From positions 80,435 through 144,434 of the forward strand of contig JAPPJZ010000018.1 in assembly GCA_028874365.1 (NCBI GenBank): a stretch of DNA of 64,000 nucleotides. Reading direction: 5' to 3'. This document shows positions 993-19,261 of the stretch, one piece after another (within the stretch, counting starts at the first letter, position 1; every line of letters starts with the position of its first letter). Made by a program: the position numbers and the translations under genes. The DNA comes from Chloroflexota bacterium (GTDB taxonomy: Bacteria; Chloroflexota; Dehalococcoidia; Bin125). The notes under the pieces are model-generated. The model searched no databases and had not been told where the DNA came from. It worked only from the letters and a program-made list of their open reading frames with translations.

Positions 993-1231
993 TCGGCGAC
1001 CTCGGCCTGTCCCGCAGCTCGTTCCCGGCGCTTCGCGCGAATCGCTTCAAGCGTGTAACCGCGAACCAGCTCAATCGAAGACTGGCCAGTCGCACGCTCT
1101 TCATTGCTGATCTCCCGAAACTCGTCTCGGTCGAAGCGCACCTGCATGACGATGCCTGGATTCTCGGCAACGTGTACTTCAATCGGTTCGTCCTCAAAGT
1201 CCTCGTCAGGGAAACGCGGGTCGTGGGTCAT
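989..1231 (-). CDS. BrnA-like antitoxin (putative RHH-type) of a BrnT/BrnA toxin-antitoxin pair
   Basis: Small ORF immediately downstream of the BrnT-like gene with an ATGA start/stop overlap. Segment VMQVRFDRDEFREI resembles a ribbon-helix-helix. Confidence 0.45.
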   Translation of the reverse strand: MTHDPRFPDEDFEDEPIEVHVAENPGIVMQVRFDRDEFREISNEERATGQSSIELVRGYTLEAIRAKRRERAAGQAEVAD

Positions 1232-1551
1232 GGTCGGTTTCGTCTTCCTCCAGGTCGATGGTAGCGGGTGTAATCGGCGGTCGATGACCGCCAACCGGTG
1301 ACAATGTGTCCAATCCGATCCTCGTCAGGACCTTCGACGACGACAGTCAGCAGCTCGCCACGGTTGTTCTTGCCCACCATTCTCCACCGCGGACGAAGTC
1401 TGCGCCGAATGCGCCGCCGCTTCCCTCTGTTGGGAAAGAACTTGGGTGAACCTTCGAACACTTCGATCGCGTCAGCTATACGCAACCCGTGGCCGCCGAG
1501 TTCCTCGATGGTGGCTTCGTTGAAGGTCAAAGCCAAGAAGAACGGAGGCAT
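1228..1551 (-). CDS. BrnT-like toxin (DUF497 family ribonuclease toxin)
   Basis: TFNEATIEELGGHGLRIADAIEVFEG ... GELLTVVVEGPDEDRIGHIVTGWRSSTADYTRY matches the BrnT/DUF497 pattern (FEWDEAK..HGVSFEEA..VF ... RIISARKAT..ER..Y). Start taken at the internal Met. Confidence 0.55.
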   Translation of the reverse strand: MPPFFLALTFNEATIEELGGHGLRIADAIEVFEGSPKFFPNRGKRRRIRRRLRPRWRMVGKNNRGELLTVVVEGPDEDRIGHIVTGWRSSTADYTRYHRPGGRRNRP

Positions 1552-1562
1552 CGGCGCTGCGG

Positions 1563-1943
1563 CTACTTGTCGAACACCACCTCGATCAGCGGCGAACCGT
1601 CGACCCATTCCTGGACGTTGTCTTCGTTGATGTACTCGCTCAGCTTCTTGGCAGAGAGGAAGACTGAACGCTTCTCGGCCGGGTCGGTGACGGCGCGGGC
1701 GGCACCATCGAGGTCGGCCTCGGTGGATTGCTTCAGGTGGAACGTAATGGCGGGATTGGCGAGCACGTTGGCGTACCACGAGCGCGGGCCGGGGCGGCCG
1801 GTGATGTAGTAGCGGTCGTCGACGTTGTGGAACCAGATCTCGATTCGCTTCGGCTCACCGCTGCTTCGGCCGGTGGTGGTGATGTCGATGACGAGATCGT
1901 TGGCCAGCGCCTCGGCGACGGCGGGATCGGATGTTGATGTCAC
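1563..1943 (-). CDS. deazaflavin (F420)-dependent nitroreductase family protein (DDN/PPOX-like)
   Basis: GRSSGEPKRIEIWFHNVDDRYYITG...WYANVLANP is characteristic of the DDN family. Probable GTG start overlaps the ogt stop (GTGA). Confidence 0.6.
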   Translation of the reverse strand: MTSTSDPAVAEALANDLVIDITTTGRSSGEPKRIEIWFHNVDDRYYITGRPGPRSWYANVLANPAITFHLKQSTEADLDGAARAVTDPAEKRSVFLSAKKLSEYINEDNVQEWVDGSPLIEVVFDK

Positions 1944-2458
1944 TGGTCGTGTCCGTTCTTGGTGATCTGCAGGTGTCTGCGTTCGTGCTCGAGGAACCAT
2001 TCCTTGCGGTCGAGGCCGCCGCCGTAGCCGCCGAGGCCGCCGTCGGAGCGGACGATCCGGTGGCAGGGTACGGCGATCCCGAGCGGATTGCGCCCGGTCG
2101 CGGTCCCGACAGCGCGGTAGGCAGCCGGCTTACCGACTGCCTGGGCAATCTCCTGATAGGACGCCGTCTGGCCGGCCGGCACTTCACGAATTGCCTGCCA
2201 GACGGCTCGCTGGAAGTCGGTGCCCTCGGGATCGATATCGATCTGTTCGATTGCCTCCACGTCGCCCTCGAAGTATCCGGCGACTGCGTCGCGGACGAAC
2301 TCGGCCTCGCTCGACAACTCTTCCGCCGCCTCGTCGGTATCCGGTGACAACACCGGTCGCGCCCACGTCTCGACGAAGCCGGCCTCGTGCAGCGCTCCGT
2401 CGCGAATGGCGAGGTACATCGTGCCGAGCGGTGTGTCGATCCAGCAGTGTTCATCCAT
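1940..2458 (-). CDS. ogt: methylated-DNA--protein-cysteine methyltransferase
   Basis: Active-site PCHRIV motif, YQEIA, NPLGIAVPCHRIVRSDG. Start at the internal Met (MDEHCWIDTPLG) is likely; the ORF extends to 2482. Confidence 0.8.
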   Translation of the reverse strand: MDEHCWIDTPLGTMYLAIRDGALHEAGFVETWARPVLSPDTDEAAEELSSEAEFVRDAVAGYFEGDVEAIEQIDIDPEGTDFQRAVWQAIREVPAGQTASYQEIAQAVGKPAAYRAVGTATGRNPLGIAVPCHRIVRSDGGLGGYGGGLDRKEWFLEHERRHLQITKNGHDQ

Positions 2459-2596
2459 CGCTGCTCTCCTGCTCACGTGCATCAGTCTTGTGCATCAGTG
2501 TCAGGCTATGGCCGGCGGCGGTAGAACGCAAGTACTATTCATGGCTCGCGTCGACTGGGCGATAGGCTGCCATTGAGATTGGAGCGTCGAGGGAGC

Positions 2597-3700
2597 ATGT
2601 CCGATCGCGACAACCGAGCCATTCGCCTGACCGATCTGGCGCGTTGCGGCGGTTGAGGATCGAAGTTTGGCCCCGAGGGGCTGGCTCACGTGCTGAGTCA
2701 TCTCGGTCCGCAGTTCCCGCCCGCCGAGCACCCGGAGTTGCTGGTTGGTCTGGCGCGCCCCGACGACGCCGCGGTGTACGCGATCGACGACGAGCGCGCG
2801 CTGGTGCAGACGCTCGATTTCTTCGCTCCGCTGGTTGACGACCCGTATCAGTTCGGCGCGATTGCCGCGGCGAATGCGATGTCCGACGTCTATGCGATGG
2901 GCGGGCGCGTGCTATTCGCGCTCAATATTGCTGCGTTTCCCGAGGACCTGCCGCCCGACGTGATCGCGGATGTGCTGCGCGGAGGGGCCGACAAGGTACG
3001 CGAGGCGGGCGCCGTCGTCGCCGGCGGACACACGATTATCGACGAAGAACCGAAGTACGGTCTCGCTGTGACCGGAGAGGTTCCCCGCGACCTGATCCGC
3101 ACGACCGGGGGAGCGCAGCCGGGCGACACGATCATCCTGACGAAGGAGATTGGCACCGGAGTGCTGATCGGCGCGAACCAGCAGGGGGCGGTTTCGGAGG
3201 AGCACTGGGACGCGGCGATCTCGCAGATGATGACGCTCAATCGCGACGCGGCGGAGGTGTCGTCCCAGGGGGACCTCGCCGCCGGGGTGCATGCGATTGC
3301 GGACGTGACGGGCTTCGGGCTCGCCGGACACCTGCACGAGATGGCAGAGCTGAGCGATGCGGCGATCGAGATCGACCTGGGCGCGGCGCCGGCGCTGGGC
3401 GGCCTCTCGGAGGCCGTCGCTGCGGGATTCGGCAGCGGCGGCCAGGGTCGGAACCGCGAGTACTACGGCGCTCGCCTGACTGTCGTTGGCGGCCGGGAAC
3501 TGACGGCGTTCGAGGAGGCGCTGCTGTACGACCCTCAGACGTCGGGCGGGTTGCTGATTTCGGCGGGGATCATCGAGGCACCGCACCTGATTCACGACCT
3601 GCAAGAGCGTGGCGTCGGGGCGACGCCGATCGCGCGGGTGACGGAGGCGGCCGAGGGTGGCCAGCTCGTCGTCAAGCCGACTCACACGCCGCGGGTTTAA
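2597..3700 (+). CDS. selD: selenide, water dikinase SelD (selenophosphate synthetase) with in-frame TGA (Sec) at 2654-2656
   Basis: Translation from ATG 2597 (GGAGG Shine-Dalgarno upstream) gives MSDRDNRAIRLTDLARCGG-U-GSKFGPEGLAHVLSHL. This aligns with E. coli SelD [25 protein letters not shown], with U at the Cys17 position and the Lys conserved. Downstream PurM-like domains are in the same frame as the 2690 ORF. Confidence 0.8.
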
Positions 3701-3716
3701 GGTGCGTCGGTGCGCG

Positions 3717-3760
3717 GGCCCTCACCCTAGCCCTCTCCCTCGGGGAGAGGGGATCGGAAA
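3717..3760. repeat. GC-rich palindromic intergenic repeat, family 1 copy A
   Basis: gggccctcaccctagCCCTCTCCCtcgGGGAGAGGGgatcgg; perfect 9-bp inverted repeat between selD and lhgO. Confidence 0.5.
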
Positions 3761-3768
3761 GGCGCTTC

Positions 3769-4989
3769 GTGTCCACCCATGATGCCGACGTTGCCGTCAT
3801 TGGGGCGGGGATCCTGGGGCTTTCGACTGCGATGGCGCTGGCGACGAAGCACGCGGGGTTGCGGGTGGTCTCGTTGGAGCAGGAGTCGGGCGTTGGGCGG
3901 CACCAGAGCGGGAACAACTCGGGTGTGATTCACTCGGGGCTGTACTATCGGCCGGGCTCGGCCAAGGCTCGGATGGCGGTTGCCGGGGCGGAGCGGATGT
4001 ACGCCTTCTGCGCGGAGCACGGGATCGGCGCGGAGCGATGCGGCAAGGTGGTGGTCGCGACGCACGAGTCGGAGCTCGAGCGGATGCGGGAGTTACAGCG
4101 TCGCGGCGACGCCAACGGCGTGCCCGATATCCGAGAACTCGGTGCGGACGAGCTGCGCGAGTTCGAGCCCAATGCGGCGGGCGTGGGTGCGTTGCACATT
4201 CCCTCGACCGGCATCGCCGACTATCAGGCGGTCTGCGAGAAGTACCGCGAGCTGTTGGAGTCGGCCGGCGGATCGGTGCGGCTGCGCTCGCGGGTTTCGG
4301 GCGTGCGCGTCGAGTCGGACGGTGTCGAACTGGCCACGACAACGGGCGTTGTGCGGGCGAAGTATGCGGTCAACTGTGCGGGACTCCAGGCCGATCGGAT
4401 TGCGCGGCGGGCGGGGGCGTCGGAGGCTCGCGACCTGCGGATCGTGCCGTTTCGCGGCGAGTACTACGACCTGGTGCCGTCGGCGCGGGGGATGCTCAGG
4501 AACCTGATCTATCCGGTGCCGGACCCGGCGTTTCCGTTCCTGGGCGTGCATTTCACGCGGCGGCTGGATGGGTCGGTCGAGGCGGGGCCGAACGCGGTGC
4601 TGGCGCTCAAACGCGAGGGCTACCGCTGGCGCGACATCGCGGTGCGCGACGCGGCCGAGTCGCTGTCCTGGCCCGGCTTCCTGCGGCTTGCTCGGGACCA
4701 CTGGCAGACCGGCCTGGGCGAGGTCTGGCGGAGCGCGAACAAGTCGGCGTTTGTCAAGGCGCTGCAGCGGCTGATGCCCGGCCTCGAAGCGGACCAGCTC
4801 GTGCGGGGCGGTGCGGGGGTGCGGGCGCAGGCGTTGCGGCGCGACGGGAGCCTGGCCGACGATTTTGAGATCGCGCGGCAGGATCGGTTGATTCACATCC
4901 TGAATGCGCCCAGTCCTGGGGCGACGGCGTCATTGTTGATCGGTGAGGAGATCGCGTCGACGGCGGAGTCGGCGTGGTTGGGCGGTTGA
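3769..4989 (+). CDS. lhgO: L-2-hydroxyglutarate oxidase / FAD-dependent oxidoreductase
   Basis: N-terminal FAD motif VAVIGAGILGLSTA and LhgO-family similarity along the full length. Confidence 0.7.
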   Translation: MSTHDADVAVIGAGILGLSTAMALATKHAGLRVVSLEQESGVGRHQSGNNSGVIHSGLYYRPGSAKARMAVAGAERMYAFCAEHGIGAERCGKVVVATHESELERMRELQRRGDANGVPDIRELGADELREFEPNAAGVGALHIPSTGIADYQAVCEKYRELLESAGGSVRLRSRVSGVRVESDGVELATTTGVVRAKYAVNCAGLQADRIARRAGASEARDLRIVPFRGEYYDLVPSARGMLRNLIYPVPDPAFPFLGVHFTRRLDGSVEAGPNAVLALKREGYRWRDIAVRDAAESLSWPGFLRLARDHWQTGLGEVWRSANKSAFVKALQRLMPGLEADQLVRGGAGVRAQALRRDGSLADDFEIARQDRLIHILNAPSPGATASLLIGEEIASTAESAWLGG

Positions 4990-5000
4990 GGGAGCGGGGG

Positions 5001-5036
5001 ACCCTCACCCCGGCCCTCTCCCAGGGGGAGAGGGGG
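5001..5036. repeat. GC-rich palindromic intergenic repeat, family 1 copy B
   Basis: accctcaccccggCCCTCTCCCaggGGGAGAGGGg; nearly identical to copy A. Lies at the left edge of the low-GC island. Confidence 0.5.
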
Positions 5037-5044
5037 TAGGAGGG

Positions 5045-5174
5045 AGATGGCGTGGTCGTGGAGCTCGCGGACGAGGGTGTCGAGTGCCTTGACGCAGAGA
5101 TAGGCGGAGCCGTCGCCGAAGCCCTGTCGCACGAGGCGGTCGATCCTGGCTCGGAAGTGGAATGGGTTGGGCAT
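5045..5174 (-). pseudogene. possible truncated 5' gene fragment abutting the repeat
   Basis: Minus-strand reading MPNPFHFRARIDRLVRQGFGDGSAYLCVKALDTLVRELHDHA runs from an ATG at about 5174 straight into repeat copy B without a plausible full-length continuation. Confidence 0.2.
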
Positions 5175-5417
5175 GGTTTGGAGCTTTTGGGTATCAGTAC
5201 GTTTGTTCTTATCGTCGCGGCTCTTGGGTGGGGTGGGGAGGTGGATGGCGGTCGTGGTGTCGGGGTTGACGGTGGTGATTCGGTTCGTTCGGAACCCTCT
5301 CATCTCCTTACCGGAGTTCAACCTACTCCGTTCTGGCGCGAAGGGAGTTTGGTACCACGTGATAGACTGCGGTGCTGTCCCCGCTGCGACCAATGACTCG
5401 AGAGCGATGGAAATGCG

Positions 5418-6338
5418 ATGACCTATCAGCCACCACCAGATCCATCGGCGAAACCTCCCTTTTTCCACGTCGGCATTGGGGAACGTTACAGGGTTGCGGA
5501 GAATCATCGCGTACGACATATTGGGAAGCTAGATTTGACATATGAGGAACTCGAGCGCCAGTTCTTGATACCGTATCAGCGTCGTGAAAACATCTTGATT
5601 CACGGCATTACCCTTGGATTCGATAAGATTAGGCAGATCGTAATATCGCAATCGGACGAATCAGCTGGACTGATCAGGATGCGATTGGAGATCCGGGCAA
5701 AGGAACGGGCCAAAAGGAGTGGGAACAAACCGTCAACAGTGAATTCATGGGATATAGCTAGAAATGCTACCGTGATAACCGACGAGATCTTGGGAAGAGT
5801 TGCACCGGCGGTCTCTCAGCAGGATAGAACACCGATGAACACCCCTGATCCCCGCAGAGTGTTCGTAGTTTCCGGGCGTGACTCAAACAATCACGAAGCG
5901 ATGTTTACATTCCTACAGTCTCTCGATCTGAATCCTATCGAGTTTCGAGTTGCACGGAGAATGACCGGCCGACCCTCACCGTACATTGGCGAGATTCTTG
6001 ACGTAGCCTTTTCCGAAGCACAAGCCATTATAGTACTGATGACCCCCGATGATGAGGCGAGACTGCTCCCGCAGCACGAGACGGATTTGAGCGGGCAAGC
6101 AAGACCTAATGTGTTGTTCGAAGCGGGAATGGCAATGGGGCGGGATCCGGATCGGACCGTCCTCGTCGAGATAGGAAAGTTACGGCCATTCAGCGATATC
6201 AGCGGGTTGCATATCCTACGATTCGATGACAGTTCTCAGGTGAGACAAGAACTGGCCCAACGACTAGAGGATGCGGGGTGCCAAGTTGACGTAGAGGGTA
6301 CTCACTGGCACACCGCAGGCAACTTCGACATTCCTTGA
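5418..6338 (+). CDS. TIR-like domain protein: unknown N-terminal domain fused to a C-terminal TIR-like (CAP12/PCTIR-type) nucleotide-binding domain
   Basis: C-terminal RRVFVVSGRDSNNHEAMFTFLQSLDLNPIEF...AFSEAQAIIVLMTPDDEAR...NVLFEAGMAMG matches the TIR-like family (VFVVHGRD...A..L...LGL.P...FAIVLLTPDD...NV.FE.G). Local GC is about 50% against about 67% in the flanks. Confidence 0.55.
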   Translation: MTYQPPPDPSAKPPFFHVGIGERYRVAENHRVRHIGKLDLTYEELERQFLIPYQRRENILIHGITLGFDKIRQIVISQSDESAGLIRMRLEIRAKERAKRSGNKPSTVNSWDIARNATVITDEILGRVAPAVSQQDRTPMNTPDPRRVFVVSGRDSNNHEAMFTFLQSLDLNPIEFRVARRMTGRPSPYIGEILDVAFSEAQAIIVLMTPDDEARLLPQHETDLSGQARPNVLFEAGMAMGRDPDRTVLVEIGKLRPFSDISGLHILRFDDSSQVRQELAQRLEDAGCQVDVEGTHWHTAGNFDIP

Positions 6339-6342
6339 TTTG

Positions 6343-9144
6343 CTAGAGCCGTTGATTTGAGACAACCGGCTCCGAGGCTAGGAGGCGGCGGAGGGGGCGG
6401 AGGTCGGGGAGGTCGAGGATTTCGGTGAGGCCGTCGTCGAGCCTGCCGCGGGTTGGGCAATCGACCATGGCGGGGAGGCGCTCGAAGCTGGAGTCGGCGA
6501 GTTCGTCGAAGAGGTCGGAAAGGTCTGTGATTTGCTGCTCTGAGAGCTCTCGGACATCGAGGACCGGCATCCGTTCGAGATCGCCCTTCTTCAGTGCGAC
6601 CCAACCTGCTCTGGTGGTCGTGCGGGTGGCCAGAAGGGACAGGATTCCAAGACTGCTGTTCAGCCAGGCCGCTAGTGCCTTGTCGTACTTGCCTTCGGTC
6701 GTCTTAATCTCCCAGAACACGTTTGACAACACGGGTTGCTCAGAACACATTGCCACGACGCGCACCGTGTTCAGCCACATACGCTCGGCCACCAAGAGTT
6801 GTCCAGCCATCTTCCACAAGCGTTGACCGTATCCGGGCTTTTGTCCGCCGCGCGGTTTGGCAAGCTCAGACAAGTAGCGATTCGGCGCGCAGGTCATTGT
6901 GGTGCGGTCGTCGGTCTCATGTCCCTCCACGAGCGGGAAAGCCGTCACCGAGTCGGTACGGTCGAATCCATCAATCAACCTCCGCCGATCTGGTCCCACG
7001 GCCGCAAGATCGGAGAGCGCGGACATCGGGACCTTGCCGTGAGTTGAGATACCCGGTAGCGAAACGTCTCCGTCTTCGGTCAGGCTGAGCGCGATGCGGA
7101 GCACGTCTGCGCGGGCGAACTGGACGCCCGCCCACTTGCGCTCGGTGAATCGCGACATCGGAATCGAGATCGATTCGCCGACGTGTCGGCCGCCAACGGA
7201 GAGCAGTGCCGTGCCGGGTTCTTCGAGCTTCGCCGTTTGTTTACGGGCGATTGCGTCAGCGGCGCGCTGTGCATCGATTACCGCGTCCGGATTGCGCCAG
7301 AGATTGACGTAGGTTGTGCGATGCTCCATGTCGATATCTCCGTCGGATCGCCTAGTAGCGATCAGCAGCATCTCGGAGAGGTCGGTGCTGTCGGAGAACA
7401 TCCAGCGATCGGGGTCGTGTGACGCGATCACCATCTCCAGCTTGAAGTCTCGCTCGATCAACGAGCGGGTCTGTTGCCACGACGAGCCGGTGCAGAGGGT
7501 GACCGGCAACACTAGCGCGAGGCGGCCCTCGCCGAGGCGCAGCTTGGGTGCGGCAGTTGCGACGAACGCCGCGCCCAAGCCTGAGATGGCGGAGCCTCGT
7601 CGCCTCTTGAGACGCCTCGACAGCTCCTGCTGCATCTTGCGACGCTCCGCGGGCGGCTTCATACCAAGCAGCATCATTCCGGGGCGCGTGTAAGGCGGAT
7701 TCATGATCGCCAGGTCGAGTTCGGGCAGACGCACGGTGTGACCCGCTGCCGTCTGAATGCCGCCGCCGGTGACCTGCTCGGACGCAGGCGTCTCGATGCC
7801 GAAAGCCTCGGCTGAGATCGAGTGCTGGACAGGGGCCGAGTCGACGCCGAGGAAGTCGACAGATCCGAGCGAGACGGTGTTGCCTTCGGCCTCCAGAGAC
7901 ATGACATACAGGTTCATGGAGTCGAATTCGATCCGGGGATTGAGCATCGCAAGACTGGTGGCGGCGAAGTGGATCGCGGAGAGTTGCACGTCGTAGCCGT
8001 GCAGCGCCTCTTCGACCAGTTCCTTGTGCAAGAGCGGAGCATTCTGTCCGCCAGCGTTCAGGTGGCGCCGCTCGGCTTCGGAGGCGACCGCCATCAGCAA
8101 CGTTCCGGTCCCGCATGCGAGGTCGGCGACATTGAGGGAAGAGGGAAGCTCGTAGTCGGACCAGTTGAAACCGTTCGGCCAGTCCTCGAAGACCAGGCGG
8201 GCCAGCATCGTCGCGGCGGGGACGGAGGTGTAGTAGGCGCCGGTGAACTTGGCGTCGGTCAACAGCGTGTGGAAGAGGCGGCCGGCGAGGTCGTGTCCCT
8301 CAATGCGATCTGTCTGTCTGACCGCCTTCACGAGCGGATCGATGGCGCCGCGTTGGAGATCGTCCGGGGAGTCGCTAACGATCTCCATGATCTCTATCGC
8401 GATCTCGAACACTGGGACGTAGTCGATCTCACGACAGATGGTGTCCCAAACGTCGCGCAGCTCAGATGCGCTGGCCTTGGCCATCTCACTGGCGGTGGGC
8501 ACGTTCTCGTTGATTGCTGAGAGCCGGTCCTGGAAGGCCAGGGCGTTGAACAGGACGAGACAACCGATGCGCAACGCGGCAGTGCGATCGCTTTCCTTGT
8601 CGGCTTTCGCGATCACGTCGGCGATACGGCGTCCGATGTTGGCGTGCTTGTTGATCGCGGCGGCGGCATCGTGCAGTGCCAGTCGCACGTCTTCGGTCGC
8701 CTGCACAACCAGGTCAGCGCCCTCAATCTGCTGGGGCAGCGTGCGTAGGTCGTCGGCGAGCTGGGTGATTCCTCCGTCTCGCAGGATTGGGTCGCCATAC
8801 ACGTCCTGCCTGGAACTGTGCAGGAACCACTGGAGGTTGAGAGTGTGTTTGAGCTCGTCGTGAATGTCGTCGACGTGCTTGAGGCCGTCGGGGTAGAGGA
8901 CGCCGACGCGGGCGACGGCGTCGGGGAAGTCCTGGACGCGCTGGTCGAGCTGGTCGTCGAGGGCGGGTCGGTTGGATTCCCACTTGCACTCGATGAGGAC
9001 GAGTTCGCCGGTGCGGAGTTCGAAGCGGATGTCGGGGGCGTCGCCTCGGCTGCGGCGTTCCGCGCGGGCCTTGATGCCGCGGGCGCGGAGGAGTTGTCCG
9101 AGGAGTGGGTTGACGGCTTCCTCGCGGGCGGTTTCGGTGGTCAT
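6343..9144 (-). CDS. MmeI-like type IIL/IIG restriction-modification enzyme (N-terminal PD-(D/E)xK nuclease plus N6-adenine methyltransferase plus target-recognition domain)
   Basis: N-terminal APDIRFEL..VLIECK (PD...ExK). MTase motif I VADLACGTGTLLMAV and motif IV MNPPYTR. About 930 aa single polypeptide. Start set at MTTETAREE (ATG 9142-9144); the ORF-track upstream extension is Pro/Arg-rich. Confidence 0.7.
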   Translation of the reverse strand: MTTETAREEAVNPLLGQLLRARGIKARAERRSRGDAPDIRFELRTGELVLIECKWESNRPALDDQLDQRVQDFPDAVARVGVLYPDGLKHVDDIHDELKHTLNLQWFLHSSRQDVYGDPILRDGGITQLADDLRTLPQQIEGADLVVQATEDVRLALHDAAAAINKHANIGRRIADVIAKADKESDRTAALRIGCLVLFNALAFQDRLSAINENVPTASEMAKASASELRDVWDTICREIDYVPVFEIAIEIMEIVSDSPDDLQRGAIDPLVKAVRQTDRIEGHDLAGRLFHTLLTDAKFTGAYYTSVPAATMLARLVFEDWPNGFNWSDYELPSSLNVADLACGTGTLLMAVASEAERRHLNAGGQNAPLLHKELVEEALHGYDVQLSAIHFAATSLAMLNPRIEFDSMNLYVMSLEAEGNTVSLGSVDFLGVDSAPVQHSISAEAFGIETPASEQVTGGGIQTAAGHTVRLPELDLAIMNPPYTRPGMMLLGMKPPAERRKMQQELSRRLKRRRGSAISGLGAAFVATAAPKLRLGEGRLALVLPVTLCTGSSWQQTRSLIERDFKLEMVIASHDPDRWMFSDSTDLSEMLLIATRRSDGDIDMEHRTTYVNLWRNPDAVIDAQRAADAIARKQTAKLEEPGTALLSVGGRHVGESISIPMSRFTERKWAGVQFARADVLRIALSLTEDGDVSLPGISTHGKVPMSALSDLAAVGPDRRRLIDGFDRTDSVTAFPLVEGHETDDRTTMTCAPNRYLSELAKPRGGQKPGYGQRLWKMAGQLLVAERMWLNTVRVVAMCSEQPVLSNVFWEIKTTEGKYDKALAAWLNSSLGILSLLATRTTTRAGWVALKKGDLERMPVLDVRELSEQQITDLSDLFDELADSSFERLPAMVDCPTRGRLDDGLTEILDLPDLRPLRRLLASEPVVSNQRL

Positions 9145-9170
9145 GGGTTCGATTGTCGCATAGGTGGGGA

Positions 9171-9240
9171 GTGCCCCCCTCTGCCTTCGGCATCTCCCCC
9201 CGCCTGACGGCGGGGGGAGAGGGGACCGGAGGGCAGGTCC
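9171..9240. repeat. GC-rich hairpin repeat, family 2 copy C
   Basis: gcccccctctgccttcggcaTCTCCCCCCGCCtgacGGCGGGGGGAGAgggg with a perfect 12-bp stem. Lies at the right edge of the low-GC island. Confidence 0.5.
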
Positions 9241-9521
9241 CCGATCGAGTCGGGGAACCGGGAGTGTGGCGATTGGGGTCTGGGCCCCGCATCGAGTGCG
9301 GGGCATCGGGCTATTGCTGCCCAGGAGCCCCCCCTCTGTCTCTACGAAACATCTCCCAGTCGGCCGGTTGAATCATTCCCGACCGTGTGTACCGCCTGAC
9401 ACTGCGTTCCAGCCTCGGCCCCACCCGACTCGAGCCTCGATACAATGAGAACATCTGCGCGACTCAGTTCGGGAAAGCCAGGCTTCGATGCCGCGAAAAC
9501 ATCCAGACCTCGACCGAGACA

Positions 9522-9551
9522 CACCCGGAATCACCCGGAATCACCCGGATC
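9522..9551. repeat. tandem direct repeat of a 10-nt unit cacccggaat (2 perfect copies plus 1 variant)
   Basis: cacccggaat cacccggaat cacccggatc in the low-GC intergenic region. Confidence 0.6.
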
Positions 9552-9594
9552 GTTCGAGACGGAGACGCAAATGAACGGGACTGGTCCGGACTCT

Positions 9595-9624
9595 TCTGGA
9601 CAAATCTGGACAAATCTGGACACA
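9595..9624. repeat. tandem direct repeat of a 10-nt unit tctggacaaa (2 perfect copies plus 1 variant)
   Basis: tctggacaaa tctggacaaa tctggacaca. ggcccgaatt is also repeated at about 9629 and about 9673. Confidence 0.6.
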
Positions 9625-9724
9625 AACGGCCCGAATTGCCAGTCCAGGACGCCAAATTGACCAAAACTGGCCCGAATTCACCGCACAAGCTGGTCAGATC
9701 GCTCTCGCCGGCCGTGAAGGGCGA

Positions 9725-11398
9725 CTAATCGCAGCAGGCGTCGTCGAGGTCGAGGCGGCAGAAGCAGGAGGATTGGATTTCGGTGTCGGCTCGGGCCTGG
9801 GCGAGGGTGAGGCGTTGGCGGGCGACGTTGGCGAGGTGGGGTTGGTTGGTTCGCTCGAGGCATTCGGTGTAGCCGGCGAGGGCCCAGACGTTGTCGAGGT
9901 GTTGGCGGGGTCGGCCGACGTTGGCGTCGTAGCCGAGGTCGGCCTGGTAGACGGCGAGGGCTTCCTCGACGCGGTCCTGCTCGAGCAGCAGGGCTCCGAG
10001 GGCGTGACGGACGGGCTGCATCCAGCCCCAGGGCTCGTCGTAGTGGAGGTGGTCGTCGAGTTCGACGGCGTGGCGCAGGTGGGCGAAGGCGGCGTCGAAG
10101 TCGCCCTGTCGGTAGGCGATTTCGCCGCGCATCATCTCCTGGGCGATGGCGAGGATGTCGCGGCAGGGGTTGTTGAACTGATAGCGCGTGTCGGGCACGA
10201 GGTCGTAGGCGCGATCGAACTCCTGGGCCTCGGCCACGGCGTCGTCGGTGCGGCCGAGCGTGGCCAGGGCGATGGCTCGGGCGTAGCGCATCACCGCGGT
10301 GGTGACGCAATAGAGCTCGCGGTCTTCCGGCAGTTCCTGCTCGAGGATTTCTTCCCACTTGCCGAAGCGGACGAGAACGTGCTGGTCGATGGGGATGAAC
10401 GCTTCGAGCCAGTCGGCCATGTTGGGCGACTCCATCTTGAGCAGCTCTTCGGGGATGGCGGCTTGCAGGGCGCGGGCGGTCTCGATGGCGGGTTGGAACT
10501 GACCGAGGAACATCGCGCCGTAGATCTTGAAGTGGTAGTTGTGGGCGCGGTACATCGTGTAGAAGTTGAACGGTCCGCGGGCCTCGAGGTAGGGTCGGTC
10601 GGCCTGGATGGCGCGCTCGTTCCAGTTGACGACGTTGAGGTAGTCGCCGCAGAGCACGTCGATGTGGGTCGCCATGTGCTGCAGGTGTCCGGAGTGGGGT
10701 GCGATCCCGCGGAGCTGGTCGGCGGCGCGCAGGGCCTGCTCGGGGAAGGGCGACATCTCCATGAGGTGGATGTACATGTGCAGAATGCCGGGATGGGGCG
10801 GCTCGGCGCAGTGGTCGATGTGGGCCATGGCGTCTTCGAGCACGGCACGGGCCTCGACGGTGTCGGCGCCGTCGGCGGGTTCTCCTGAGTCGAGATTCCA
10901 GAGCGACCAGGGCGTGCGGTTCATCACTGCTTCGGCGAAAAGCGAGGCGATGTCGAGGTCGTCGGAGTGGTCGCGGTAGACGTCGCGCATGGCGTCGGCG
11001 TAGTCGTCGACCCAGGGCATCATGTCTTCGAGCGGTTCGGTCTGCGGGTAGCGGCTCTGCAGGGCTGCGATCAGGTCGCGTTCGGCGGCTGTGCAGTTGT
11101 CGGACAGGGAGACGGCCAGGTTGGCCTCGTCGTGGGCGGTGGTCAGCGCTGTCGCGACTTCCTTACGGCCGAAGGCTTCCCAGGGCTTGTTGTAGTTGGG
11201 ACCGATCGCATAAGCGATGCCCCAGTGGGCCATGGCGCAGTCGGGATCGGCCTGGACGGCCTGTCGGAAGCAGTGGACAGCCTCGTCGTGGTTGAAGCCG
11301 TAGGTCCAGATGAGGCCGCGGTCGAACCAGAGTTGCGCGTCGGGGGAGGATGTGGTGATGGGTCGGCTGTGGGAGCCGAGGTCGAAGTCGTAGGTCAT
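9725..11398 (-). CDS. tetratricopeptide-repeat (TPR-like) protein, function unknown
   Basis: 557 aa with a helical-repeat pattern (AMAHWGIAYA..., repeated A..Y/W..G/A helices). No catalytic motifs recognised. Confidence 0.55.
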   Translation of the reverse strand: MTYDFDLGSHSRPITTSSPDAQLWFDRGLIWTYGFNHDEAVHCFRQAVQADPDCAMAHWGIAYAIGPNYNKPWEAFGRKEVATALTTAHDEANLAVSLSDNCTAAERDLIAALQSRYPQTEPLEDMMPWVDDYADAMRDVYRDHSDDLDIASLFAEAVMNRTPWSLWNLDSGEPADGADTVEARAVLEDAMAHIDHCAEPPHPGILHMYIHLMEMSPFPEQALRAADQLRGIAPHSGHLQHMATHIDVLCGDYLNVVNWNERAIQADRPYLEARGPFNFYTMYRAHNYHFKIYGAMFLGQFQPAIETARALQAAIPEELLKMESPNMADWLEAFIPIDQHVLVRFGKWEEILEQELPEDRELYCVTTAVMRYARAIALATLGRTDDAVAEAQEFDRAYDLVPDTRYQFNNPCRDILAIAQEMMRGEIAYRQGDFDAAFAHLRHAVELDDHLHYDEPWGWMQPVRHALGALLLEQDRVEEALAVYQADLGYDANVGRPRQHLDNVWALAGYTECLERTNQPHLANVARQRLTLAQARADTEIQSSCFCRLDLDDACCD

Positions 11399-11525
11399 TG
11401 AGCCAGATCTCTTCCGTCGAAGCGCGAGTGTGCAGTTCTCCGAATCGTAAAGTGCGAGGGATCAGCGCCGCACCGGCGCAAACACGGTAGCCAGCTCTTG
11501 ATATCCTGCGTCTCTGGAGGTCGCG

Positions 11526-11819
11526 ATGACCCTGCAGTTCAAGGCGGAGATCTACGAGGAAGCCGGTGGGTACGCATCCGTATGTCCGGAGTTGGTCATC
11601 GCCAGTTGCGGGGACACGATCGATGAGGCGCGAGCGATGCTGATCGAGGCGATCGAGTTGACCCTGGAGGATATGTCTGCCGAGGAGTACGAGTTCCGAG
11701 TCAGCGGCGAGATGTCGGCGAGCAGCGACATCGACGACGAGGAGTTGGTCGACTCGATACTGGTCGAGACAAGTGTCATAGACGTGGATGTCGAGTTGCC
11801 GTTCGCACCGGCTCGCTAG
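11526..11819 (+). CDS. orphan HicB-like antitoxin (UPF0150 family)
   Basis: MTLQFKAEIYEEAGGYASVCPEL...GDTIDEARAMLIEAIELTLEDM matches the HicB N-terminal domain. No adjacent hicA. Confidence 0.5.
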   Translation: MTLQFKAEIYEEAGGYASVCPELVIASCGDTIDEARAMLIEAIELTLEDMSAEEYEFRVSGEMSASSDIDDEELVDSILVETSVIDVDVELPFAPAR

Positions 11820-12050
11820 CGGTGCGCGTACTGACGGCTCGGCAAGTCAACCGGATCCTGGAATGACAGGGATTCGTTCAGACCCGGCAACGCGGGAGTC
11901 ACCGCTGCTACCGGGGTGTTGTTGGCGGTCGCACCCGACTCGTCACGGTTGCACAGCACCGCGACATCCCTCCAGACACACTCAGAACGATCATCAAACA
12001 ATCCGGTCTCCCGAGCGACCTCTTCCGTTAGGCCGCATATCCTCCCTTTC

Positions 12051-13235
12051 ATGACTACCAACCACCTCCGACCGCCGCTCGACGGCGTCCTCGTGATTAA
12101 TGCCGGGCAGATTCTGGCGGCTCCGTTCTGTGCGACGATTCTGGCCGAGTTTGGGGCGGATGTGATCAAGGTTGAGCGGCCGGGGTCGGGCGAGCCGAAC
12201 CATGGGACGATTTCGTACGTGCAGGAGAATCGGTCGCAGCGCGGCGTGACCTGCAACCTGGCGGACGCTCGGGGCAAGGAGCTGTTTCGCGGGCTTTGCG
12301 AGCGGGCCGATGTGCTGATCGAGAACTTTCGGCCTGGGACGCTGGAGAAGATGGAGCTGGCGCCGGACTCGCTGCGTGAGCTCAATCCCGGGCTGGTTGT
12401 GACGCGGGTCTCGGGCTACGGACAGACGGGTCCGTACCGTGAGCGTGCGGGATTTGACCGGGTGGCGCTCGGTTTCGCGGGGATGACCTATGCGACCGGT
12501 TGGGCCGACGGTCCGCCGGTGCGGCCGGGCTATATGGTCGCCGACTACAGCGCGGGACTGACCGCTGCGATGGGCACGATGATGGCGCTGCGCGCTCGCG
12601 ACGTAAACGGCGGGGTCGGGCAGGACGTTGACGTGGCGCTCTACGAGGCGATCTGGAAGCAGTCGGGGACTCATGCTTCGCAGTTTTTCAGGACGAACGA
12701 GAACCGCGAGCGGACAGGCAACTACTGGCCCGGCGTCGTGCCGGCGGAGCAGTGGCAGACGGCGGACGGGCATCACCTGATCATCAACGCGACCACGCAG
12801 GGCACCTTCGTGCGCCTGACGGAGGCGATGCAGCGACCTGAGCTGCTCAAGGATCCACGCTTCGAGGATCAACGAGATCGGCGCAGGAACTACGAGGCGA
12901 TTCATGAGATCGTCGGTGAATGGATCGGCACGCTGACGTTGGAGCAAGTTCAGAGGCTGCTCGACGAGCACGGCGTGCCGGCGACGAAGGTGTACGCGAC
13001 GTCCGACGTGATGTCGGACGAGCACTACGTCGCTCGCGAGCAGATCGTTGACGTGCCTTCGGAGCAGCACGGGATATTGCCCCAGCCTGGCGTCGTGCCG
13101 CGGCTCTCAAAGACGCCGGGCAAGGTGAAGCATCGGGCGCCAACGCTGGGTGAACACAACCAGGAGATCTACGGCGGGATGCTCGGGATCAGCGATGATG
13201 AGCTGGAAGAACTCTCGGCGGACGGAGTGATCTGA
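12051..13235 (+). CDS. family III CoA-transferase (CaiB/BaiF)
   Basis: LDGVLVINAGQILAAPFCATILAEFGADVIKVERPG, then GYGQTGPY and GDVDAG-like core; about 395 aa. The ORF-track start at 11916 is an upstream extension. Confidence 0.8.
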   Translation: MTTNHLRPPLDGVLVINAGQILAAPFCATILAEFGADVIKVERPGSGEPNHGTISYVQENRSQRGVTCNLADARGKELFRGLCERADVLIENFRPGTLEKMELAPDSLRELNPGLVVTRVSGYGQTGPYRERAGFDRVALGFAGMTYATGWADGPPVRPGYMVADYSAGLTAAMGTMMALRARDVNGGVGQDVDVALYEAIWKQSGTHASQFFRTNENRERTGNYWPGVVPAEQWQTADGHHLIINATTQGTFVRLTEAMQRPELLKDPRFEDQRDRRRNYEAIHEIVGEWIGTLTLEQVQRLLDEHGVPATKVYATSDVMSDEHYVAREQIVDVPSEQHGILPQPGVVPRLSKTPGKVKHRAPTLGEHNQEIYGGMLGISDDELEELSADGVI

Positions 13236-14011
13236 TGCCGGGCACGGTGAGTTCGAGCGAGTTCAAGAGCGATTTGGATGAGCTAATCGCCCTAGGGGCG
13301 GCAATGTCCGACGACATTTTCTACAGAGGGCTTGATGAGCTCAACGAAAAAGAAGCCGGTAGATTCGAACAAGTAAAGGATTCCTTCGAGAGGGACTACC
13401 AGAACTGGTACACGGAGGCATCAGCGTTACTTGGTCAATTGCTTCCTGATCGGCTTGCGGAGTTTACGAACTTGTATCTGCCAGATTCACAACGGAAGGC
13501 ACTAAACGCCCAAACGTATAGGATTCAAGATTGGCTAGTCGGAGTCCGGCACCGTGGAACCCTCGACGAGCTCGCAGTTGTATCCCACCTGCTTGATACC
13601 CAGGTGGGCATCCTGAGGTCAGTTGAACGCAGATTCGAAAGTGCGCTCTTCGACATCAGGACCCTCGTTCAAGCTGACCTCTTCGACACTGAGTTGGAGA
13701 CTGCCAAGGAACTCCTTAACCGGGGATTTGTGCGCGCGGCTGGGGCGGTTGCTGGTGTCGTTCTTGAACGACACCTCTCCCAGGTGGCCGACAATCACAA
13801 GGTGAAGACTCGAAAGAAGCACCCGACAATCAACGACCTCAACGACCTTCTCAAGAGCAACAGCGTGGTCGACCTTCCCTCGTGGCGTCACATCCAAAGA
13901 CTTGGTGATCTTCGCAATCTGTGTGCGCACAACAAAGACGTAGAGCCGTCGTCTCAGCAAGTGGAAGAGTTGATCGATGGGGTAGACAAGTTCGCGAAGA
14001 CGCTGTTCTAG
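13235..14011 (+). CDS. hypothetical protein with a C-terminal HEPN-like Rx4H motif (LRNLCAHN); possible abortive-infection or RNase-like defence protein
   Basis: About 50% GC against about 67% in the flanks. Helical N-terminal part. Rx4H (R-NLCA-H) near the C-terminus. Start overlaps the upstream stop (TGATG). Confidence 0.4.
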   Translation: MPGTVSSSEFKSDLDELIALGAAMSDDIFYRGLDELNEKEAGRFEQVKDSFERDYQNWYTEASALLGQLLPDRLAEFTNLYLPDSQRKALNAQTYRIQDWLVGVRHRGTLDELAVVSHLLDTQVGILRSVERRFESALFDIRTLVQADLFDTELETAKELLNRGFVRAAGAVAGVVLERHLSQVADNHKVKTRKKHPTINDLNDLLKSNSVVDLPSWRHIQRLGDLRNLCAHNKDVEPSSQQVEELIDGVDKFAKTLF

Positions 14012-14039
14012 ACTTTAGTCTACTGACGGGTCCGACGTA

Positions 14040-14918: not shown

Positions 14919-14928
14919 GGAGCTAACC

Positions 14929-16334: not shown

Positions 16335-16414
16335 CTGGTCAGCGTATCGAGCGTTGGGCTGCGCGCTAGCTCTGAGCCGACTCGATCAGGCCGGCCCAAA
16401 CGTAGACTGTTCGC

Positions 16415-17806: not shown

Positions 17807-17859
17807 ACGGGCGAGGCGTTGAACAGGCGACCTGCCTGGCCCAGTCGTAAACTTTTCGC

Positions 17860-19239: not shown

Positions 19240-19261
19240 CGCCCAACAGAGCCACGGAGCG

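What the first reader, a model, noticed from the sequence alone, without database searches (positions are those of the whole stretch)
5001..9240. Low-GC defence islet flanked by GC-rich palindromic repeats: TIR-like-domain protein plus MmeI-like type IIL RM enzyme
The segment from about 5040 to about 9150 is about 50-55% GC against about 67% in the flanks. It is bounded on the left by repeat copy B (5001-5036) and on the right by a hairpin repeat (9171-9240), with tandem 10-nt direct repeats just beyond (9522-9624). It encodes (i) a 306-aa protein whose C-terminal half matches the TIR-like (CAP12/PCTIR-type) NAD-processing/nucleotide-binding domain used as an effector in several anti-phage systems, fused to an uncharacterised about 140-aa N-terminal domain; and (ii), convergently, a single-chain RM enzyme with PD-ExK nuclease (DIRFEL..VLIECK), gamma-class N6A MTase motifs (DLACGTGTLL; NPPY) and a C-terminal target-recognition region. 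A TIR-like protein with a novel N-domain beside a type IIL RM enzyme is a typical defence-island arrangement. The TIR-like gene could be a stand-alone or RM-associated abortive-infection effector that is not yet described.
Basis: partly seen in the sequence, partly recalled or inferred. Interest (0 to 1): 0.65.

Follow-up and report, generated by a model that had tools for sequence, protein, structure and literature searches.

The report
Swappable defence slot: restriction enzyme plus TIR gene
Between two housekeeping genes of an uncultured Dehalococcoidia (Chloroflexota) bacterium lies a slot that holds different anti-phage genes in each related species; here it holds a self-contained restriction-modification enzyme and, independently, a TIR-domain gene already catalogued as an untested defence candidate, so it is a typical rather than a new arrangement.

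Summary
The sequence features are real, but the GC claim is overstated. Region 5040-9150 is 60.4% GC, not 50-55%. Only the TIR-like gene is clearly low (51.7%). The restriction-modification (RM) gene is 63.3%, against a window mean of 64.9%.

In 12 related species the flanking genes keep their order. The 1.4-4.9 kb between them holds other RM or defence cargo, never these two genes. The islet is therefore a variable defence hotspot.

The 306-aa protein matches PF10137 (E=1.5e-25). Over its full length it matches the PADLOC candidate PDC-S35, and it has thousands of full-length homologs. Its N-terminal domain is uncharacterised but not new.

The 933-aa protein (true start 9144) combines a PD-(D/E)xK nuclease, a gamma-class N6-adenine methyltransferase and a target-recognition domain (TRD). 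Its closest solved fold is the type IIG enzyme BpuSI. No MmeI-specific domain was detected. Its family comes fused or split, always keeps the nuclease, and has no conserved partner.

None of 83 homologous RM loci carries a TIR-like gene nearby, so the pairing is incidental. The palindromic repeats are dispersed REP-like elements, not islet borders.

Verdict: an ordinary defence hotspot carrying a divergent type IIG-like RM enzyme and a known, untested TIR candidate.

The parts
4990..9724 (.). Variable slot between the stop codons of the DAO/LhgO-like gene (3769-4989, +) and the TPR gene (9725-11398, -). At most 4990-9439 is specific to this genome.
   Evidence: Homology to relatives L009, L010, L017, L018 and L026 stops at window 4985-5006 and resumes at 9723-9725; with L012 it resumes at 9440. 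In 12 related species the same slot is 1.4-4.9 kb and holds different cargo.
4999..5041 (.). REP-like palindromic repeat, copy B (core CCCTCTCCCAGGGGGAGAGGG, 5014-5034). Copy A is at 3716-3758.
   Evidence: Copies A and B are 84% identical. The core forms a 9-bp hairpin. The element is dispersed in related genomes, 22 matches in 11 loci. Copy A is missing in L009, where the two flanking genes abut.
5040..5174 (-). 45-codon remnant ORF (MPNPFHFRARIDRLVRQ...), probably the truncated 5' part of a small gene from earlier cargo.
   Evidence: Window 5061-5212 is 75% identical over 155 nt to L011 11497-11648. That stretch is the N-terminal part of a 121-aa ORF lying next to a KAP-NTPase (PDC-S20) gene in the same slot. 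No Pfam or PHROG match.
5418..6338 (+). TIR-like gene, 306 aa, a member of the PADLOC candidate family PDC-S35. It has the lowest GC in the window (51.7%).
   Evidence: PADLOC PDC-S35 E=1e-25 over the full length. 4,719 homologs with E <= 0.001, the best 44-56% identical over most of the length. GC.
5418..5801 (+). N-terminal domain (aa 1-128), conserved within the family, no known relative; putative sensor or oligomerisation module.
   Evidence: AF2 pLDDT is about 90 for aa 11-120: a beta-hairpin, a helix, three strands and helices. No Pfam hit in 19 members. No significant PDB hit by profile (best is a CASK PDZ domain, E=0.5).
5856..6227 (+). CAP12/Pycsar-type TIR domain (aa 147-270). The invariant motif QARPNVLFEAGMAMGR contains Glu235 (6120-6122).
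   Evidence: PF10137 E=1.5e-25, 89.9 bits against a cutoff of 24.7. Best fold match is the TIR-STING fibre 9lmr, prob 1.0. E235 is invariant in 19 homologs (coordinates).
6343..9144 (-). Single-chain type IIG-like restriction-modification gene, 933 aa.
   Evidence: Homologs of 931-945 aa start at the equivalent of Met55 of the open frame. AF2 model pLDDT 84.7, pTM 0.85. Top PDB fold hit is BpuSI 3s1s, E=1.8e-16.
8770..9144 (-). N-terminal PD-(D/E)xK nuclease domain (aa 1-125). Catalytic-type residues E29, D38, E52 and K54 lie at 8983-9060.
   Evidence: E29, D38 and E52 are invariant in 32 sequences down to 25% identity, and K54 is the majority residue at its column. This domain is a separate ORF directly upstream in about 30 of 83 loci. 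Weak profile hit to the endonuclease-like protein AF1548 (1y88, E=0.04).
8245..8769 (-). Helical connector (aa 126-300).
   Evidence: The AF2 secondary structure is all-helical from 126 to 296.
7345..8244 (-). Gamma-class N6-adenine DNA methyltransferase domain (aa 301-600). Motif I DLACGTGTLL is at 8095-8124 and motif IV NPPY at 7690-7701.
   Evidence: D341, G345, G347, N482, P483 and P484 are invariant. Family members hit Pfam N6_Mtase (23/32) and Eco57I (15/32). PDB profile hits are BsaXI, PglX/BrxX, BseCI, HsdM and BpuSI.
6343..7344 (-). C-terminal target-recognition region (aa 601-933) plus the stop codon.
   Evidence: The fold alignments to BpuSI, CamA, M.BseCI and DrdV are long (670-1,075 columns), longer than the methyltransferase domain alone; residue ranges are not printed, so coverage of this region is inferred. 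pLDDT here is above 90.
9160..9313 (.). Cluster of GC-rich hairpins upstream of the RM start codon: 12-bp stem at 9193-9220, then 9221-9243 and 9277-9313. The first is related to the REP-like element.
   Evidence: Fold z-scores are -3.6 to -4.7. 9213-9233 is 86% identical to part of copy B. The equivalent position upstream of the RM gene in L002 and L004 carries the canonical palindrome and a conserved CGACAAT..ATG leader.
9440..9724 (.). Native flank next to the TPR gene, not islet. It contains the two 10-nt tandem arrays (9522-9549 CACCCGGAAT; 9595-9622 TCTGGACAAA).
   Evidence: About 73% identical by blastn to L012 15819-16071 (one search merges this stretch with the TPR gene at 83%), which has different cargo. 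The TCTGGACAAA array is conserved there. Arrays found by TRF.

Best explanation
The 4.7 kb between the DAO/LhgO-like gene and the TPR gene is a recombination-exchangeable defence hotspot in a lineage of Dehalococcoidia, many of them from sponges. In this genome it holds two independent single-gene immunity modules placed tail to tail.

Module 1 (6343-9144, minus strand) is a self-contained type IIG-like restriction-modification enzyme. Its C-terminal recognition domain would bind a specific DNA sequence. The gamma-class methyltransferase would methylate an adenine there on host DNA using SAM. The N-terminal PD-(D/E)xK nuclease would cut unmethylated incoming DNA. The domain architecture, the conserved catalytic residues, the fold and the absence of a partner are shown. 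The activities, the recognition site and the cleavage distance are inferred.

Module 2 (5418-6338, plus strand) belongs to the widespread PDC-S35 family: a conserved N-terminal domain of unknown fold class followed by a CAP12/Pycsar-type TIR domain. The most likely mechanism is abortive infection. A phage-derived cue, sensed through the N-domain, would drive oligomerisation of the TIR domains. That would switch on NAD+ hydrolysis at Glu235 and stop growth of the infected cell. Domain identity and residue conservation are shown. The trigger, the oligomerisation and the NADase activity are inferred from PycTIR and TIR-STING.

The low GC of module 2 points to recent acquisition. Module 1 has near-native composition, and its closest relatives are in the same lineage.
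For: Hotspot:
- The AIRS-DAO ... TPR gene order is kept in 12 related species. None of them has either gene in the slot.
- Their slots hold MTase-HNH fusions, a type II M+R pair, an Eco57I/DrmMI-like type IIG enzyme, a HATPase+helicase+MTase set, PDC-S19 and PDC-S20.
- Homology breaks at the flanking stop codons.
- A remnant of other cargo lies at 5061-5212.

RM enzyme:
- Invariant E29/D38/E52, with K54 the majority residue, motif I and NPP[YF].
- Pfam N6_Mtase and Eco57I hits in family members.
- PDB profile hits to BsaXI, PglX, BseCI, HsdM and BpuSI.
- AF2 model pTM 0.85, with top fold hit BpuSI at E=1.8e-16, followed by CamA, BrxX, DrdV and BsaXI.
- In 83 loci the nuclease module is fused (about 49) or is a separate ORF immediately upstream (about 30). 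It is never missing except in the three loci cut at a contig end.
- No flanking gene family recurs in more than 3 of the 83 loci.

TIR-like gene:
- PF10137 E=1.5e-25 and a full-length PDC-S35 match.
- Fold match to TIR-STING.
- Invariant QARPNVLFEAG motif.
- It is solitary or embedded in RM/defence loci, with no constant partner, in five different contexts.
- PycTIR has the same N-sensor/C-TIR order and is activated by oligomerisation (PMC11224242). CAP12/Pycsar TIRs become NADases through oligomerisation (10.64898/2026.04.30.722052).

Composition.
Against: - No activity has been measured for either protein.
- No paper in the searchable library mentions PDC-S35, so its defence role is a prediction from genomic association only.
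- The window's TIR-like protein has an 8-residue deletion, unique among 19 homologs, right after TPDDEARL. It falls in a region AF2 models poorly (pLDDT below 50 at 214-230). It also has Ser where most homologs have His in FVVHGR. It could be impaired.
- The window RM protein itself passes no Pfam threshold, and PADLOC type IIG models reach only E=1e-4.
- The recognition region of the RM family is not noticeably more variable than the rest of the protein. That is unusual for enzymes that diversify their specificity.
- Two TIR-like homologs sit among housekeeping genes.
Confidence: 0.72

Rival explanations
1. The two genes form one functional unit: an RM enzyme coupled to a TIR abortive-infection effector. 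The TIR protein would, for example, be triggered when restriction fails or is inhibited.
For: The two stop codons are only 4 nt apart, at 6338 and 6343. TIR-like homologs lie next to RM genes in 2 of 4 other contexts: inside a type I RM operon in L007, and beside GmrSD-HNH plus an EcoRI-type methylase in L005. In L004 another single-gene candidate (a KAP NTPase, PDC-S20) follows the RM gene.
Against: None of 83 loci encoding an RM homolog has a TIR-like gene within the 5-8 kb flanks held. No neighbour family recurs in more than 3 of the 83 loci. The genes are convergent, so they are not co-transcribed. Their GC3 values differ (54% against 79%), which suggests separate acquisition. TIR-like homologs also occur with no RM gene nearby.
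Confidence: 0.06
2. The 933-aa protein is not a restriction enzyme. It would be an orphan or regulatory DNA methyltransferase, or the methylase of a BREX/DISARM-like system, with a degenerate nuclease-like N-terminus.
For: Strong fold hits include the orphan methyltransferase CamA and the BREX methylases PglX/BrxX. The window protein passes no curated family threshold. The recognition region is evenly conserved. The gene has near-native GC, and homologs 60-80% identical are common in the lineage.
Against: E29, D38 and E52 are invariant down to 25% identity, with K54 the majority residue. The nuclease module is kept in every complete locus, fused or as an adjacent ORF. No BREX or DISARM partner genes recur in the flanks. 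The best fold hit is a genuine type IIG endonuclease.
Confidence: 0.12
3. The TIR-like protein is not an NAD-depleting abortive-infection effector. It might produce a signalling nucleotide for an unlinked effector, as in Thoeris. It might receive a second messenger made elsewhere. Or it might have a non-immune nucleotide-processing role.
For: Bacterial TIR domains also act as signal generators (general knowledge of Thoeris). Weak fold hits include nucleoside 2-deoxyribosyltransferase and DNPH1. Two homologs lie among housekeeping genes. There is no experimental report for PDC-S35.
Against: PF10137 TIRs characterised so far are NADase effectors switched on by oligomerisation. No ThsA-like, cyclase or CD-NTase gene is in the window slot. 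The N-domain gives no cNMP-binding or STING hit. The family was picked up by PADLOC from defence-island association, and several contexts here are RM or defence loci.
Confidence: 0.2
4. The islet is a discrete mobile element, such as a transposon or a MITE-bounded cassette, delimited by the palindromic repeats.
For: Related GC-rich palindromes lie near both ends, at 4999-5041 and 9193-9233. A similar palindrome lies just upstream of the RM gene at a different locus in L002 and L004.
Against: There is no integrase, transposase or tRNA gene in or beside the slot. The palindrome is scattered through related genomes, including a sixfold tandem array, and is also inserted between two housekeeping genes. 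An exact-pattern scan found no palindrome within 200 bp of the slots in 11 relatives. Homology breaks at the flanking stop codons rather than at the repeats.
Confidence: 0.05

Closest known systems
BpuSI and other type IIG (Eco57I-like) restriction-modification enzymes
   Same: One polypeptide carries an N-terminal PD-(D/E)xK nuclease, a helical connector, a gamma-class N6-adenine methyltransferase and a C-terminal recognition domain. BpuSI is the best fold match (3s1s, E=1.8e-16). Family members hit Pfam Eco57I and N6_Mtase.
   Different: Only about 12% sequence identity. The window protein passes no Pfam or NCBIfam threshold. The family also exists as a two-gene form, with a roughly 190-aa nuclease plus a roughly 750-aa methyltransferase-TRD protein. 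No accompanying separate methyltransferase gene is present; from memory, BpuSI has such partners.
MmeI / type IIL enzymes (including DrdV)
   Same: The same overall single-chain R-M-S plan, a similar size (about 920-1,000 aa) and no separate methyltransferase gene. DrdV appears among the fold hits (7lo5, E=1e-10). 6 of 32 relatives weakly hit MmeI_Mtase.
   Different: No match to MmeI_N, MmeI_hel, MmeI_TRD or MmeI_C. MmeI is not among the PDB profile hits at E<=1 or the 50 best fold hits. Lone-strand methylation and cleavage 18-20 nt away, which define the type, are unknown here.
PADLOC phage-defence candidate PDC-S35
   Same: Full-length profile match (aa 29-293 against 15-275 of 278, E=1e-25), and a single gene with no constant partner.
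   Different: None in architecture. The window copy has an N-terminal extension shared with its closest homolog, plus a unique 8-aa deletion. The family is a prediction, and no test was found in the searchable literature.
PycTIR (Pycsar) and Cap12 / TIR-STING (CBASS) effectors
   Same: The same TIR subfamily (PF10137) and a fold match to the TIR-STING fibre. PycTIR has the same order, an N-terminal sensor followed by a C-terminal TIR. The conserved Glu is present.
   Different: No cyclase or CD-NTase gene is nearby. The N-domain is neither a cNMP-binding domain nor STING. The NCBIfam Cap12 equivalog scores 20 bits against a cutoff of 450.
Defence islands and hotspots between conserved core genes
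   Same: Fixed flanks, variable RM and abortive-infection cargo, lower GC than the flanks and remnants of earlier cargo.
   Different: No integrase or mobile-element backbone. The hotspot is specific to this Dehalococcoidia lineage.

Membership tests
MmeI family (type IIL RM) | MmeI-type N-terminal nuclease, helical spacer, TRD and C-terminal domains (Pfam MmeI_N, MmeI_hel, MmeI_TRD, MmeI_C) | tested here: not met
   No hit at E<=0.1 in the window protein and none at E<=0.01 in 32 family members. MmeI is absent from the PDB profile hits at E<=1 and from the 50 best fold hits.
MmeI family (type IIL RM) | MmeI-type methyltransferase domain (PF20473) | tested here: inconclusive
   No hit in the window protein. 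6 of 32 relatives hit it (best E=3.9e-8), but more of them hit N6_Mtase (23) and Eco57I (15).
MmeI family (type IIL RM) | Methylation of one strand only, with cleavage about 18-20 nt from the site | not testable with these tools
   Needs methylome data and in vitro cleavage mapping.
Type IIG RM enzymes (general) | Nuclease and methyltransferase in one polypeptide with a recognition domain | tested here: met
   Domain order comes from the alignment and the AF2 model. Long fold alignments (670-1,075 columns) to BpuSI, DrdV and BsaXI.
Type IIG RM enzymes (general) | Intact PD-(D/E)xK catalytic residues | tested here: met
   E29, D38 and E52 are invariant, and K54 is the majority residue, across 32 sequences of 25-80% identity (motif verified).
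Type IIG RM enzymes (general) | Gamma-class N6-adenine methyltransferase motifs, with motif I before motif IV NPP[YF] | tested here: met
   DLACGTGTLL at aa 341-350 and NPPY at aa 482-485. D341, G345, G347 and N482-P484 are invariant.
Type IIG RM enzymes (general) | Sequence-specific cleavage and methylation activity | not testable with these tools
   No biochemical or methylome data are available.
CAP12/Pycsar TIR domain (PF10137) | Profile match above the curated threshold | tested here: met
   89.9 bits against a cutoff of 24.7, aa 147-270 covering 1-118 of 119 profile positions. All 19 homologs tested also match.
CAP12/Pycsar TIR domain (PF10137) | TIR fold and a conserved catalytic-type glutamate | tested here: met
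Best PDB fold hit is the TIR-STING fibre 9lmr, prob 1.0. E235 is invariant within QARPNVLFEAG.
CAP12/Pycsar TIR domain (PF10137) | NAD+ hydrolase activity | not testable with these tools
   Needs an enzyme assay.
CBASS Cap12 or Pycsar PycTIR effector | STING or cNMP-binding sensor domain, with an adjacent CD-NTase or pyrimidine cyclase gene | tested here: not met
   No such domain in the protein. NCBIfam Cap12 scores 20 bits against a cutoff of 450. The PADLOC PycTIR model matches the TIR part only. The neighbouring genes are DAO, the RM enzyme and TPR.
PADLOC PDC-S35 | Full-length match to the candidate's profile | tested here: met
   PDLC05007 E=1e-25, aa 29-293 against 15-275 of 278. Four further PDC-S35 models also match.
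PADLOC PDC-S35 | Demonstrated anti-phage activity | not tested
   No paper in the searchable library mentions PDC-S35. A study that tested eight PADLOC candidate systems (seven PDC, one HEC) did not include it (PMC12881386).

The most novel reading that the evidence does not exclude
The most novel reading has three parts.

1. The 933-aa protein represents a large, uncharacterised and self-contained lineage of type IIG-like RM systems. The lineage exists both as a single chain and as a small nuclease gene plus a methyltransferase-TRD gene. Pfam, NCBIfam and PADLOC models currently miss it.
2. PDC-S35 is a genuine stand-alone TIR NADase abortive-infection system. Its conserved N-terminal domain would be a new kind of direct phage sensor.
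3. Both genes are traded through lineage-specific hotspots in Dehalococcoidia, many of them from sponges.
Probability: 0.45. Interest if true: 0.45.

Novelty: new member of a known kind. Interest (0 to 1): 0.3.

Why it matters
This is a clean natural example of a defence hotspot. Fixed core-gene flanks hold different RM and single-gene defence cargo in a dozen related species.

It also flags two practical gaps. First, a widespread nuclease-methyltransferase-TRD family is annotated as 'hypothetical' and escapes the current RM and defence profile libraries: 848 clusters at 50% identity score E<=1e-30. Second, a very common TIR-domain candidate, PDC-S35, with thousands of homologs, still lacks any experimental test.

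Both are cheap to test by cloning. Neither would change current concepts of bacterial immunity.

Tried and rejected
- **MmeI membership.** Rejected after the Pfam, PDB-profile and fold searches.
- **Functional RM-TIR pairing.** Rejected after scanning 83 RM loci.
- **Repeats as islet or mobile-element boundaries.** Rejected.
- **Fold of the N-domain.**
  - The whole-model Foldseek search against the PDB found only the TIR half.
  - An N-domain profile against PDB sequences gave only an insignificant PDZ hit, E=0.5.
  - An N-domain profile search of the large protein database returned only 7 short proteins and no fusion to any other effector. The modular-sensor idea therefore remains untested.
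- **Literature.** 'PDC-S35' gave 0 papers. COG4271, DUF2326 and CAP12-PCTIR gave nothing relevant.
- **Other scans.** Rfam found nothing credible in 4800-9900. The promoter and terminator consensus scan gave nothing above chance. No tRNA gene lies in 1-20000.
- **Hypervariable recognition segment in the RM family.** Sliding identity showed none.

Full report
**Source and observation**

The window comes from an uncultured Chloroflexota/Dehalococcoidia genome. The 306-aa protein is 100% identical to a protein annotated 'MAG: nucleotide-binding protein [Chloroflexota bacterium]'. The closest flanking-gene relatives are Dehalococcoidia MAGs, several from sponge metagenomes.

The composition claim is only partly right:
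- Region 5040-9150 is 60.4% GC. That is the lowest 4.1-kb stretch in the window, but it is not 50-55%.
- The TIR-like gene is 51.7% GC (GC3 54%). The RM gene is 63.3% (GC3 79%).
- The window mean is 64.9%, and the flanking genes are 66-69% (GC3 84-89%).

The long ORF runs to 9306. Homologs of 931-945 aa all begin at the equivalent of its Met55, so the gene is 6343-9144 and encodes 933 aa.

**The region is a variable defence slot**

A scan of one genome per species with the DAO/LhgO-like protein (3769-4989) returned about 20 Dehalococcoidia relatives at 76-96% identity.
- In 12 of them the order AIRS-family gene, DAO gene, gap, TPR gene is kept. None has either islet gene.
- Their gaps are 1.4-4.9 kb at 55-61% GC, against 62-69% in their flanks.
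- The gaps hold different cargo:
  - N6_N4 methyltransferase-HNH fusions (L009, L016);
  - a type II methyltransferase plus restriction enzyme (L010, L013);
  - HATPase_c_3 + ResIII helicase + methyltransferase (L012);
  - a 1,320-aa Eco57I/DrmMI-like type IIG enzyme (L017, L020);
  - DUF3644, which is PDC-S19 (L018);
  - a KAP NTPase, which is PDC-S20 (L011).
- Nucleotide homology to the relatives stops at the DAO stop codon (4985-5006). It resumes at the TPR stop codon (9723-9725), or at 9440 in L012.
- Window 5061-5212 is a 75%-identical remnant of a small gene that accompanies the KAP NTPase in L011. This points to cargo turnover.
- No integrase, transposase or tRNA gene is present.

**The repeats are not islet borders**

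- Copy A (3716-3758) lies between the AIRS and DAO genes. It is absent from L009, where those genes abut.
- The palindrome CCCTCTCCC..GGGAGAGGG occurs 22 times in 11 of the 88 loci held at that point, 10 of those 11 being related Dehalococcoidia or sponge-metagenome loci. One locus, L018, has six tandem copies at 40-nt spacing.
- A related palindrome and a conserved leader lie upstream of the RM gene at a different chromosomal position in L002 and L004. The hairpins at 9160-9245 may therefore travel with that gene.
- The TCTGGACAAA array is conserved in L012 despite its different cargo, so it belongs to the native flank.

**The 933-aa protein**

By sequence:
- On its own it passes no Pfam or NCBIfam threshold. 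It gives only weak PADLOC methyltransferase and type IIG hits.
- It belongs to a large family. The exhaustive search found 2,925 clusters at 50% identity with E<=1e-3 and 848 with E<=1e-30. Many are full length at 25-40% identity.
- In a 32-sequence alignment E29, D38 and E52 are invariant and K54 is the majority residue at its column (the PD-(D/E)xK signature). So are D341, G345 and G347 (motif I) and N482-P483-P484 (motif IV).
- Family members hit Pfam N6_Mtase (23 of 32), Eco57I (15) and MmeI_Mtase (6), but no other MmeI domain.
- The family profile finds BsaXI, PglX/BrxX, M.BseCI, HsdM, BpuSI and DrdV among solved structures, but not MmeI.

By structure:
- The AF2 model is confident (pLDDT 84.7, pTM 0.85).
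- Its best solved-structure match is the type IIG endonuclease BpuSI (E=1.8e-16). CamA, BrxX/PglX, M.BseCI, DrdV and BsaXI follow.

By genomic context, from a metagenome scan plus the three earlier contexts (83 loci in all):
- The nuclease module is fused in about 49 loci.
- It is a separate ORF of about 190 aa immediately upstream of the methyltransferase-TRD ORF in about 30 loci.
- It is missing only in the three loci where the contig ends.
- No flanking gene family recurs in more than 3 of the 83 loci.

This persistent fused-or-adjacent association of nuclease and methyltransferase-TRD, with no other partner, is the strongest argument for a self-contained RM system. It argues against an orphan methylase and against a BREX- or DISARM-type component. 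'Type IIG-like' is therefore supported. 'MmeI-like type IIL' is not supported at family level, and its defining biochemistry cannot be tested here.

**The 306-aa protein**

- Residues 147-270 match PF10137 (CAP12/Pycsar TIR) at E=1.5e-25.
- The whole protein matches PADLOC PDC-S35, with aa 29-293 against 15-275 of 278 at E=1e-25.
- The search found 4,719 homologs with E <= 0.001. The best cover most of the length at 44-56% identity. They come in a form of about 300 aa and a form of about 415 aa with a C-terminal extension.
- The motif QARPNVLFEAGMAMGR, with Glu235, is invariant.
- The AF2 model (pLDDT 76) has the TIR-STING fibre as its best PDB match.
- The N-domain (aa 1-128) is confidently predicted, at pLDDT about 90. 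It has no Pfam match and no significant PDB-sequence relative.
- It is not a cNMP-binding or STING domain, and no cyclase is nearby. The protein is therefore not a CBASS or Pycsar effector.

The family has no constant partner:
- The closest homolog (56% identity) sits in another hotspot beside GmrSD-HNH and an EcoRI-type methylase.
- Another sits inside a type I RM operon.
- Two are solitary among housekeeping genes.

No paper in the searchable library mentions PDC-S35. A study that tested eight PADLOC candidate systems did not include it.

The window copy has a unique 8-aa deletion after TPDDEARL. This may matter for function.

**Mechanism**

For the RM enzyme I infer sequence-specific adenine methylation of host DNA and cleavage of unmethylated DNA, by analogy with BpuSI, DrdV and MmeI-type enzymes.

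For the TIR-like protein I infer cue-driven oligomerisation that activates NAD+ hydrolysis and abortive infection. The analogy is with PycTIR, which has the same N-sensor/C-TIR order (PMC11224242), and with TIR-STING.

The two modules are most likely independent:
- none of 83 RM loci carries a TIR-like gene;
- the genes converge;
- their GC3 values differ by 25 points.

**Verdict**

This is a real but ordinary defence hotspot. Its cargo is a divergent member of a known kind of RM enzyme plus an already catalogued, untested TIR candidate. Two things are modestly interesting: the RM family is missed by current annotation models, and PDC-S35 is very common yet untested.

Noticed in passing
window 9560-9625; L012 15930-16000: A run of CTGGAC-containing direct repeats (…CTGGTCCGGACTCTTCTGGACAAATCTGGACAAATCTGGAC…) is almost perfectly conserved between the window and L012, although the neighbouring cargo differs. 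It could be a protein-binding array or part of a small conserved ORF (window 9387-9728 and L012 15834-16160 translate similarly).
   Followed up: partly
L018 18257-18477; window 3716-3758: The roughly 40-nt REP-like palindromic element behaves like a small mobile or expandable repeat. L018 has six tandem copies at 40-nt spacing. In the window a copy is inserted between the AIRS and DAO genes, which abut in L009.
   Followed up: partly
L002 8001-11520; L004 8001-12327; L005 8001-11167: Related genomes have a second hotspot between an enoyl-CoA hydratase gene and a luciferase-like monooxygenase gene. It holds either the 933-aa RM gene plus a variable downstream gene (a 188-aa unknown, or a KAP NTPase = PDC-S20), or an EcoRI-type methylase + GmrSD-HNH + the closest TIR-like homolog. 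The same cargo genes therefore circulate between at least two hotspots.
   Followed up: partly
L093, L095, L098, L102, L105, L106 and about 25 other loci: In about 30 of 83 loci the nuclease domain of the RM family is a separate ORF of about 190 aa that overlaps or abuts the start of the methyltransferase-TRD ORF. The break is always near residue 185-190, so this is a natural split form of the enzyme.
   Followed up: partly
window 13235-14011 (+): A 258-aa ORF at 53.4% GC (GC3 63%) has no Pfam match and sits just after a CoA-transferase gene. It is a second low-GC patch in the window and may be another foreign gene.
   Followed up: no
window 6060-6100 (aa 214-222 of the TIR-like protein): The window protein lacks 8 residues that all 18 other aligned homologs have, between TPDDEARL and P.HET. 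AF2 confidence is below 50 there.
   Followed up: no
homologs P0012, P0028, P0045, P0079, P0102: A long form of the PDC-S35 family (about 415 aa) carries a C-terminal extension of about 110 aa. One member gives a weak winged-helix (HTH_45) hit, which hints at nucleic-acid binding in that subfamily.
   Followed up: no
window 6343-9144: The window's own 933-aa protein was not returned at 100% identity from the 5.8-billion-protein collection (best hit 80%), although the neighbouring TIR-like protein was. The gene may be unannotated, or called differently, in the deposited MAG.
   Followed up: no
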